A DNA stretch of 64,000 nucleotides from a virus: IMG/VR virus record IMGVR_UViG_3300023210_000015, positions 1-64,000 of that record; one strand, 5' to 3'. Made by a program: the position numbers and the translations under genes. Numbering within the stretch: the first letter of the stretch is position 1; the number at the start of each line of letters is the position of its first letter. The notes beneath the pieces are model-generated. The model ran no database searches. It had not been told where the DNA came from and worked only from the letters and a program-made list of their open reading frames with translations. Below are positions 19,334-20,051 of this stretch, piece by piece.

Positions 19334-19354
19334 TTGTATAACAAGGAGAATAAA

Positions 19355-20051
19355 ATGAATAAACAGAAAGGCTGTCTTTGATGTTTTATTGGAAGTTCAG
19401 TTTGGCGAAGGCGGAAAGGACTCGAAACTGTTTGTAGGTGATTTGTTTGCAGCATATGCTAGATATGCTATCGCTAATAAATTGAAAATTGAAAAGTTGT
19501 ATGATGGAGATGGATATATTTCTGCTAAAATTACTGGTAGAAATTCTTGGAATCTGTTTGAGAACGAAGCTGGTAAGCATTGCGTCCAGCGTATCCCTCC
19601 GACAGAATCGAAAGGAAGAAGGCATACTTCCATTATAACTGTTGCTGTAATCAAAATGGATTTAGATTTGCCATTGATTAATTTGTCAGATATTGAGTTT
19701 AAAACGCAGGGTGGCCATGGAAAAGGTGGGCAGCATCAAAATAAAACTGATTCTGCTGTTAGAGCTAAACATAAGGTGACGAAAATCGAAGTTTTCATTA
19801 ATGGAAGAAGTCAACACCAGAATAAACAGAATGCCTTGCGGATATTGACGGCCAAGGTTAATAACCACTATGATAAGAAAAGGCGTGAAAGAGTTCGCCA
19901 AGATATACAAAAGCATAGAGGCGGTGGAGGTAGAGGAAACAAAATACGCACTTATAACTTTATTGCATCAAGAGTCGTTGACCATCGTTCTGGTCTAAAA
20001 ACAAGACAAATTGAAAAAATAATGAAGGGCAGATTCGATCTGTTAAAATAA
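19355..20051 (+). CDS. RF1-type peptide chain release factor lacking domain 1, expressed via a +1 frameshift at CTT-TGA (19376-19381)
   Basis: AGGAGA RBS then ATG 19355 MNKQKGCL*; the +1 frame continues DVLLEVQFGEGG...; PxT motif QRIPPTESKGRRHTS, GGQHQNKTDSAVR, KIRTYNF...RVVDHR. Confidence 0.85.

What the first reader, a model, noticed from the sequence alone, without database searches (positions are those of the whole stretch)
19341..20051. RF1-type release factor gated by an RF2-style CUU-UGA +1 frameshift, inside the tRNA array
Seen: a strong RBS (AGGAGA) precedes ATG AAT AAA CAG AAA GGC TGT CTT TGA T. Shifting +1 at CTT-TGA gives D-V-L-L-E-V-Q-F-G-E-G-G, the start of RF domain 2. A weak SD-like AAGG lies just upstream of the shift site. 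Established: CUU-UGA is the autoregulatory shift site of bacterial prfB (RF2). The protein, however, has the RF1 PxT specificity loop (RIPPTESKGRRHTS, not SPF), an RF1-like KIRTYNF tail and GGQ, and it lacks the whole N-terminal domain 1 (the RF3-interacting part). Inference: the factor is made only when UGA termination is slow. It may read UGA despite PxT, act as a ribosome-rescue factor, or replace release activity lost to a host defence. The CUU shift codon is read by the tRNA-Leu(GAG) encoded immediately upstream, and the array leader also ends in UGA.
Basis: partly seen in the sequence, partly recalled or inferred. Interest (0 to 1): 0.88.

Follow-up and report, generated by a model that had tools for sequence, protein, structure and literature searches.

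The report
Frameshift-gated short release factor in giant phages
A giant uncultured phage carries a shortened copy of the bacterial protein that ends translation at UAA/UAG. The gene can only be read if the ribosome slips one base at a stop codon, the trick bacteria use for the sister factor RF2; related phages keep this trick, sometimes twice in a row and with any of the three stop codons.

Summary
AGGAGA-ATG opens an 8-codon leader (MNKQKGCL) that ends in TGT CTT TGA. The +1 frame then encodes a 223-aa RF1-type factor with PPT, GGQ and domains 2-4, but no domain 1.

The shift site is not chance or an assembly error. Of 36 distinct close homologue loci from uncultured huge phages, 26 have an in-register CTT-T-stop site, 8 of them with two tandem sites; with the window and GenBank LR756511.1 that makes 36 sites at 28 loci. 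These are often preceded by AGGGGG or GGAGG 3 nt upstream, and 23 of 36 are followed by C. In 19 of the 28 loci the body frame has no possible start codon.

Unlike bacterial prfB, the gate uses TGA (22), TAG (10) or TAA (4). Three homologues instead carry an in-frame TGA.

The best reading is a conserved programmed +1 frameshift that ties synthesis of an RF3-independent phage terminator to slow termination. Whether it senses host RF2 or regulates itself is unresolved, because PPT predicts UAA/UAG reading while the window's gate is UGA.

The adjacent tRNA-Leu(GAG) is real, but that adjacency is not conserved.

I found no published description. Papers from 2016 and 2025 state that RF1 genes lack such frameshifting.

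I class it as a new variant of a known kind.

The parts
19251..19333 (+). tRNA-Leu(GAG), the isoacceptor class that reads CUU and can re-pair with UUU. It lies directly upstream of the gene.
   Evidence: ARAGORN and Rfam tRNA at 53 bits. The adjacency is not conserved in homologues.
19344..19349 (+). Shine-Dalgarno AGGAGA, 5 nt before the leader ATG.
   Evidence: Sequence. Homologue leaders have similar AGGAG-type sites.
19355..19381 (+). Frame-0 leader ORF: ATG AAT AAA CAG AAA GGC TGT CTT TGA (MNKQKGCL-stop).
19367..19371 (+). Weak internal SD-like AAAGG, 4 nt upstream of CTT.
   Evidence: 19 of 36 surveyed sites (the window's excluded) have a GGAG/GAGG/GGGG-type element, typically AGGGGG/GGAGG 3 nt upstream.
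19373..19382 (+). Shift site TGT CTT TGA T: E-site codon TGT, P-site slippery CTT-T, A-site stop TGA, then T. T19379 is the base skipped.
   Evidence: Across the 36 sites, CTTT is fixed by how the sites were selected, TGT precedes 21 of them, and C follows the stop in 23.
19380..20051 (+). +1-frame body of the release factor (223 aa, P0001; stop TAA at 20049-51), comprising domains 2, 3 and 4 of RF1. PPT is at 19596-19604 and GGQ at 19725-19733.
19389..19391 (+). In-frame TTG (Leu4 of the body), the start that gene callers pick (220-aa P0002). It is the rival start site.
   Evidence: No SD lies at a usable distance. 19 of 28 frameshift-type loci have no such codon, and none has an ATG.
20051..20287 (+). 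78-aa CxxC...CxxC ORF whose ATG overlaps the factor's stop (TAATG); likely translationally coupled, function unknown.
   Evidence: No Pfam hit.

Best explanation
The gene encodes a compact RF1-type class-I release factor with domains 2-4 only, so it has no RF3 contact. It is made by a programmed +1 ribosomal frameshift of the prfB type.

Ribosomes start at ATG 19355 and translate eight codons. With tRNA-Leu on CUU in the P site and UGA in the A site, they either terminate, releasing an octapeptide, or slip CUU to UUU and continue in the +1 frame.

Shown here: the site, the frame structure, the fold, and conservation of the device across a clade of huge-phage factors. That device includes tandem double sites and in-frame-stop variants.

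Inferred: the yield rises when termination at the gate codon is slow. The phage would then make its own terminator in proportion to a shortage of termination capacity, for example a heavy late translation load after host shut-off. The product would serve the phage's UAA and UAG stops, which are 88% of its stops, and would free host RF2 for UGA.
For: - Sequence and frames.
- RF1 affinity and missing domain 1. The AlphaFold model (pLDDT 87) matches ribosome-bound RF1 at TM 0.83-0.84.
- No second PCRF piece in the 109 kb of this genome that is held.
- Survey of 36 distinct homologue loci: 26 have CTT-T-stop in register, 8 of them doubled. One has GTT-TGA, 3 have an in-frame TGA, and 6 start directly.
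- Motif statistics over 36 sites at 28 loci (those 26, the window and LR756511.1): G-rich at -8 to -4, TGT at 21 of 36, and C after the stop at 23 of 36. This matches the prfB consensus AGGGGG-N3-CTTT-stop-C described in PMC12421855.
- 19 of the 28 loci have no ATG, GTG or TTG in the body frame before the GEGG motif.
- The family forms one clade, separated from full-length RF1 by a branch with 100% aLRT support.
- Standard genetic code and no suppressor tRNA in the 109 kb held.
- Stop usage is TAA 85, TAG 19, TGA 14.
- Domain 1 is dispensable for release but needed for RF3 action (PMC1586002, citing Mora et al.).
Against: - The window's own site is a weak version. Its SD-like element is only AAAGG at 4 nt, and T rather than C follows UGA, so efficiency may be low.
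- An in-frame TTG lies 9 nt downstream of the shift.
- PPT predicts that the product cannot read the UGA gate, so simple autoregulation as in prfB does not apply.
- The gate codon varies freely among homologues, which fits a generic pause as well as a sensor.
- No expression, proteomic or biochemical data exist, and the host is unknown.
Confidence: 0.7

Rival explanations
1. The frameshift is real, but the factor reads all three stop codons, or at least UGA as well. The gate would then be true self-regulation as in prfB, whichever stop is used.
For: - All three stops serve as gates, and near-identical proteins differ in gate codon. In prfB, by contrast, the gate is always a codon its product reads (PMC12421855).
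- The helix-5 tip is GEGGxDSK instead of GxGG(D/E)EA, at the position where RF2 E167K broadens specificity (PDB 8p16 title).
- About half the family has QTS for the universal HTS, and some members have PxND loops.
- TGA-gated phages use TGA for about 41% of nearby stops.
Against: The window's protein keeps Q-R-I-P-P-T-E and R-H-T-S, the residues that make RF1 specific for UAA/UAG. There is no biochemical evidence. The gate codon does not correlate cleanly with loop variants.
Confidence: 0.2
2. The frameshift is real but works as a fixed attenuator. It sets a low constant translation yield and senses nothing.
For: - The gate stop is interchangeable.
- About half the sites, including the window's, lack a clear SD-like element.
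- Six homologues start directly, without any gate.
Against: A stop codon is kept in the A site at every shift site, and C after the stop is enriched (23 of 36). A fixed attenuator would not need these features. Tandem sites and in-frame-TGA variants all depend on termination failure.
Confidence: 0.15
3. In this phage there is no frameshift. Translation of the factor starts at TTG 19389, perhaps by re-initiation after the leader's UGA, giving the 220-aa protein that gene callers predict.
For: TTG lies in frame 7 nt after the leader's stop. The database holds the 220-aa call, P0002. The window's stimulatory elements are weak.
Against: - There is no SD at a usable distance, and the strong RBS serves the ATG of the leader.
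- The TTG falls inside the first conserved strand (DVLLEVQF).
- 19 of 28 frameshift-type loci have no start codon in the body frame and none has ATG, yet they keep CTT-T-stop.
- Double-site homologues cannot be read by re-initiation.
Confidence: 0.08
4. The protein is a stop-codon-independent ribosome rescue factor of the PrfH or ArfB kind.
For: It lacks domain 1, like PrfH, and gives weak NCBIfam hits to PrfH (68 bits) and ArfB (19 bits).
Against: It scores far higher as RF1 (207 bits) and keeps the PxT loop and the other decoding residues. No RtcB-like gene lies among the ten flanking ORFs scanned. It has a full domain 2/4, unlike ArfB.
Confidence: 0.05
5. The extra base is an assembly error, or the gene is a decaying pseudogene.
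For: A single metagenomic assembly underlies the window.
Against: The same device appears in dozens of independent assemblies from different samples. The protein is well conserved, with 33 invariant columns.
Confidence: 0.02

Closest known systems
Bacterial prfB (RF2) autoregulatory +1 frameshift (AGGGGG-N3-CUU-UGA-C)
   Same: Same slippery CTT-T, a stop in the A site, an SD-like element 3 nt upstream in about half of the sites, and C after the stop in most. In both cases the gene product is a class-I release factor.
   Different: - The product is RF1-type, not RF2.
- The gate may be TGA, TAG or TAA. In prfB it is 98.6% TGA and never TAG in 8,164 genomes (PMC12421855).
- The site lies in a short leader before domain 2, not inside domain 1.
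- Eight homologues have two tandem sites.
- The window's gate (UGA) is not a codon that its PPT-type product is expected to read.
Bacterial RF1 (prfA)
   Same: PxT and GGQ motifs, the fold of domains 2-4, and best profile scores to RF1.
   Different: It lacks the roughly 105-aa domain 1. It scores below the NCBIfam cut-off (207 against 400). The helix-5 tip is GEGGxDSK and the loop is GRRHTS. It forms a separate clade. prfA has no programmed frameshift (PMC12421855, PMC5009743).
Mimivirus/Megavirus class-I release factor gene (PMC3521657)
   Same: A giant virus's own termination factor whose translation must pass internal stop codons by recoding (frameshift and readthrough). The authors proposed that this is autoregulatory.
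   Different: That factor is eRF1-type in a eukaryotic virus, and one gene uses one frameshift plus one readthrough. Here the factor is bacterial RF1-type, and the frameshift, double frameshift and in-frame stop occur in different homologues.
PrfH (RF-H), the domain-1-less release-factor paralogue paired with RtcB
   Same: Class-I RF core without domain 1, with GGQ.
   Different: PrfH has its own altered decoding motifs and an obligatory upstream rtcB-like partner (PMC1586002). Here PxT is kept, no partner was found, and the profile score is low (68 against 166.65).
Release factors of recoded phages (RF2 in TAG-recoded Lak/Agate phages, RF1 in TGA-recoded Jade phages; bioRxiv 10.1101/2021.08.26.457843)
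   Same: A phage-encoded class-I RF among translation genes.
   Different: Those accompany stop-codon reassignment and suppressor tRNAs. This genome reads well in the standard code and shows no suppressor tRNA in the 109 kb held. No frameshift gating was reported for them.

Membership tests
RF1 (prfA, TIGR00019 / NF001859) | PxT codon-recognition tripeptide with the flanking Q-R-x-P-x-T-E ... H-T-S residues | tested here: met
   VQRIPPTESKGRRHTS in P0001.
RF1 (prfA, TIGR00019 / NF001859) | GGQ catalytic motif and the fold of domains 2-4 | tested here: met
   GGQ at residues 116-118. Pfam RF-1 at E = 4.9e-22. The model matches ribosome-bound RF1 at TM 0.83-0.84.
RF1 (prfA, TIGR00019 / NF001859) | N-terminal domain 1 (about 105 aa; contacts RF3 and L11) | tested here: not met
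   The match starts at profile position 105 of 347. Only 7 open codons lie upstream. No other PCRF piece is present in the 109 kb held.
RF1 (prfA, TIGR00019 / NF001859) | Score above the curated equivalog cut-off | tested here: not met
   207 bits against 400, and 199 against 423.
RF1 (prfA, TIGR00019 / NF001859) | Peptide release specific for UAA and UAG | not testable with these tools
   Needs an in vitro release assay.
prfB-type programmed +1 frameshift | CUU-U slippery codon with a frame-0 stop in the A site and the body in the +1 frame | tested here: met
   The same holds in 26 of 36 homologue loci and in LR756511.1.
prfB-type programmed +1 frameshift | SD-like AGGGGG 3 nt upstream of CUU | tested here: inconclusive
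   The window has only AAAGG at 4 nt. 19 of the 36 surveyed sites (the window's excluded) have a GGAG/GAGG/GGGG-type element.
prfB-type programmed +1 frameshift | Weak stop context (C after the stop) | tested here: not met
   The window has TGA-T. C follows the stop at 23 of the 36 sites.
prfB-type programmed +1 frameshift | The gate codon is one that the encoded factor itself reads (autoregulation) | tested here: not met
   By sequence inference only: PPT predicts UAA/UAG reading, and the gate is UGA. Among the 36 sites the gates are TGA 22, TAG 10 and TAA 4. Biochemistry is needed for a firm answer.
prfB-type programmed +1 frameshift | Frameshifting actually occurs and responds to RF level | not testable with these tools
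   Needs a reporter assay or mass spectrometry.
PrfH (TIGR03072) | Own decoding motifs, an adjacent rtcB-like partner, and a score above the cut-off | tested here: not met
   68 bits against 166.65. PxT is retained. The ten flanking ORFs scanned (four on one side, six on the other) include radical-SAM, a Zn-ribbon ORF, S24 peptidase and HNH; none is RtcB.
ArfB (NF006718) | GGQ domain plus a basic C-terminal tail, with no codon-reading domain | tested here: not met
   19 bits against 100. A full domain 2/4 is present.

The most novel reading that the evidence does not exclude
A clade of huge-phage release factors is made only when termination fails at a gate codon. The gate can be any of the three stops. 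It is passed by one +1 shift, by two tandem +1 shifts, or by in-frame readthrough.

The simplest logic that explains free exchange of gate codons is that the product is an RF3-independent terminator reading all three stops and regulating itself. If not, phages carry a general sensor of host termination capacity.

Either way, this would be the first RF1-lineage factor with recoding-based control, and the first tandem prfB-type frameshifts.
Probability: 0.3. Interest if true: 0.85.

Novelty: new variant of a known kind. Interest (0 to 1): 0.78.

Why it matters
Programmed frameshifting in release-factor genes has been treated as an RF2-only trait. PMC5009743 says the RF1 counterpart is unknown. 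PMC12421855 found none in prfA and no TAG gate among 8,164 prfB motifs.

Here an RF1-lineage factor in huge phages uses the same device with all three stops. Some homologues have two sites in series, which should give a steeper response. A few use an in-frame stop instead.

This offers a natural test bed for three questions:
- How does gate-codon identity relate to factor specificity?
- What does a domain-1-less, RF3-independent terminator do in an infected cell?
- How do large phages take over late steps of translation?

It also has a practical side. Gene callers currently start these genes at arbitrary internal Leu or Val codons, or miss the leader, so annotations of this family are systematically wrong.

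Tried and rejected
Only 6 of 119 loci were release-factor genes, so it gave no prevalence figure.
- The metagenome and genome-collection scans seeded with the family alignment returned almost only canonical full-length RF1.
- Two family members are labelled Planctomycetota MAG proteins. A search of 301 Planctomycetota genomes with one of them (P0062) found only matches of at most 44% identity, almost all in open frames of roughly 310-530 aa typical of full-length RF1. The labels probably reflect binned phage contigs.
- Stop-codon reassignment was rejected for this genome. The standard code gives 84% coverage by long ORFs and there is no suppressor tRNA. It was also rejected for the loci with in-frame TGA, whose neighbouring genes are intact under the standard code.
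- No RNA structure acts as a stimulator at the window's site; the fold is no better than shuffles, z = 0.25.
- A functional link to the neighbouring tRNA-Leu(GAG) is not supported. Only a few homologues sit in tRNA arrays, and Leu(GAG) is rarely near.
- A split gene, with domain 1 encoded elsewhere, was not found in the 109 kb held.
- Gate codon against GC content or decoding-loop variant showed no clear relation. Gate codon against local stop usage showed a weak trend in a small, non-independent sample.

Full report
**What is in the window.**
Directly after tRNA-Leu(GAG) (19251-19333) comes AGGAGA (19344-49). Five bases later is ATG 19355. Frame 0 reads ATG AAT AAA CAG AAA GGC TGT CTT TGA (MNKQKGCL-stop).

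The +1 frame is open from 19359. Entered at GAT 19380, it runs to TAA at 20049-51 and gives a 223-aa protein, P0001. Gene callers start it at TTG 19389, giving 220 aa.

The window is the first 64 kb of a 109-kb IMG/VR record that CheckV rates 23% complete, so this is a huge phage. The record has 36.5% GC and reads well in the standard code. It carries 11 tRNAs and no suppressor tRNA.

**What the protein is.**
- Pfam finds the C-terminal half of PCRF plus the RF-1 domain.
- NCBIfam ranks RF1 first at 207 bits over profile positions 105-333 of 347. RF2 scores 143, PrfH 68 and ArfB 19, all below their cut-offs.
- phmmer aligns the protein with E. coli RF1 residues 112-340.
- An AlphaFold model built from 38 family sequences has pLDDT 87. 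It superposes on ribosome-bound RF1 at TM 0.83-0.84.
- The RF1 decoding residues are present (VQRIPPTE...GRRHTS), as is GGQ. Domain 1 is absent, and no second PCRF fragment lies in the 109 kb held.

According to PMC1586002, which cites Mora et al., domain 1 is not needed for codon-specific release. Truncated RF1 works in vivo, but domain 1 is needed for RF3 action. The product is therefore expected to be an active terminator that RF3 does not recycle.

**Is the frameshift real?**
The protein belongs to a large family. The best 120 clusters at 90% identity are all 194-288 aa long and 47-63% identical to P0001. The alignment has 33 invariant columns.

I fetched DNA for homologues from IMG/VR and traced the reading frames upstream of each body. 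Among 36 distinct loci of the close family:
- 26 have CTT-T-stop exactly in register with the body frame, and 8 of these have two such sites in series.
- One has GTT-TGA.
- Three (L128, L138, L143) have a short ATG leader joined to the body by an in-frame TGA.
- Six start directly at an ATG with its own SD.

I checked two double sites by eye. L001 reads ...AGG GGG CGG CTT TGA C..., then ...AGG GGG TGT CTT TGA A.... L004 reads ...AGG GGG TGT CTT TAG C..., then ...AGG GGG TGC CTT TAG C.... A published but unannotated GenBank huge phage, LR756511.1, has TGT CTT TAA C followed by CGT CTT TGA C.

Adding the window and LR756511.1 to the 26 gives 36 sites at 28 loci:
- The preceding codon is TGT at 21.
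- Positions -8 to -4 are G-rich, and 19 sites have a GGAG/GAGG/GGGG-type element.
- The base after the stop is C at 23.

This is the prfB consensus as described in PMC12421855: AGGGGG, 3 nt, CTTT, stop, C.

In 19 of the 28 loci the body frame has no ATG, GTG or TTG between its upstream stop and the GEGG motif, and none has an ATG. For most members the frameshift is therefore the only way to make the protein. This removes assembly error and pseudogene as explanations. It also makes the TTG start unlikely in the window, where TTG is simply Leu4 of the first strand (DVLLEVQF).

The window's own site is a weak version. Its SD-like element is AAAGG at 4 nt, T follows the stop, and no RNA structure is present.

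**How this differs from prfB.**
The gate codon is TGA at 22 sites, TAG at 10 and TAA at 4. The double sites combine TAG+TGA, TAA+TGA (twice), TAA+TAG, TGA+TGA (twice) and TAG+TAG (twice). L147 and L148 encode nearly identical proteins but have TAA and TAG gates.

In prfB, 98.6% of 8,164 motifs have TGA and none has TAG. The same study found no programmed frameshift in prfA. The 2016 review PMC5009743 states that the RF1 counterpart is unknown.

In a quick maximum-likelihood tree, the gated family plus two direct-start members forms one side of a branch with 100% aLRT support, set against 25 canonical full-length RF1 sequences. A more distant set of phage RF1-like genes (36-41% identity) also lacks domain 1 but mostly has a plain ATG start directly before the body.

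**Mechanism.**
Shown: the site, the frames and their conservation.

Inferred from the established prfB mechanism: with tRNA-Leu on CUU in the P site and a slowly decoded stop in the A site, the tRNA re-pairs with UUU and translation continues in +1. The yield therefore rises as termination at the gate slows. Two sites in series should multiply the two efficiencies and sharpen the response. The in-frame-TGA variants depend on termination failure in the same way.

What is sensed remains open. The window's product has the RF1 loop and should not read UGA, so its gate would report host RF2 availability. This phage ends 85 of 118 crude genes in TAA, 19 in TAG and 14 in TGA. An RF1-type factor could therefore serve 88% of its stops and, by taking over UAA, free RF2. 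That would be an indirect feedback loop.

The alternative is that the family reads all three stops and regulates itself, which would explain the free exchange of gate codons. It gains some weight from three features: the changed helix-5 tip (GEGGxDSK), QTS replacing HTS in about half the members, and PxND loops in a few. Only biochemistry can decide.

- The tRNA-Leu(GAG) next door is real and is the right isoacceptor class. However, homologues rarely have it nearby.
- Nothing supports a rescue role. The decoding residues are kept and no RtcB lies among the ten flanking ORFs scanned.
- There is no sign of stop-codon reassignment.

**Closest precedent in viruses.**
The Mimivirus/Megavirus eRF1-type factor is translated through one frameshift and one readthrough (PMC3521657).

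**Literature and earlier notes.**
Eight full-text searches found no description of a frameshift-gated RF1-type phage factor. Papers on recoded phages mention only RF2 or RF1 as parts of code-change modules.

Earlier notes of this scan report the same CTT-TGA device in another phage (e1-5763427), a PDND-loop variant (e1-6028052) and a domain-1-less RF1 without recoding (e1-5748645). These are unchecked AI notes. My survey reproduces the first two kinds of observation independently on other DNA.

**Limits.**
- There are no expression data.
- The host is unknown.
- Only ±4 kb was available around most homologues.

Noticed in passing
window 20650-20733: A tRNA-like stretch follows tRNA-Ser(tga): 5' GGAAGG... 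a GGTTCGATTCCGG T-arm ...CCTTCC 3'. Neither ARAGORN nor Rfam called it. It may be an atypical tRNA-Ser(CGA) that completes the Ser set.
   Followed up: partly
window 19091-19244: tRNA-Leu(caa) and tRNA-Leu(taa) are only 75-76 nt long, so they lack the long variable arm usual for bacterial tRNA-Leu. The Leu(gag) copy is 83 nt.
   Followed up: no
window 18876-19004: A small ORF just before the Leu/Ser/Cys tRNA array ends ...LSLSLLSSSLSSLCL with TGT CTC TGA, which resembles the TGT CTT TGA of the release-factor leader. This is the subject of another finding (e1-6018144).
   Followed up: no
window 20051-20287: A 78-aa ORF with two CxxC pairs has a start that overlaps the release factor's stop (TAATG). 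It has no Pfam match.
   Followed up: partly
L128:3960-4010, L138:3950-4010, L143:3950-4010: In three homologues the short ATG leader is joined to the release-factor body by an in-frame TGA instead of a frameshift site. Their neighbouring genes read normally in the standard code.
   Followed up: partly
L127, L149, L151, L156, L042, L140 (release-factor bodies): Decoding-loop variants PDND, PSND, PKND or PHL replace PPTE. About half the family has QTS instead of the otherwise universal HTS. This suggests altered codon reading in parts of the family.
   Followed up: partly
L140, about 4.6 kb downstream of the release-factor gene: A tRNA with anticodon CUA (amber suppressor type) lies in a 436-kb phage whose release-factor leader has TAA and TAG gates.
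   Followed up: no
L162-L201 (IMG/VR contigs, many small): A more distant group of phage RF1-like genes (36-41% identity) also lacks domain 1. Most of them start directly at an ATG with an SD (typically MKRVIEIRA...), often after a conserved small gene ending ...YDWNKASRIGRVKKE.
   Followed up: partly
window 17501-18787 (-): A B12-binding radical-SAM enzyme is encoded on the opposite strand just upstream of the tRNA array. Glycosyltransferase and sulfotransferase genes lie further upstream (13782-17483).
   Followed up: no
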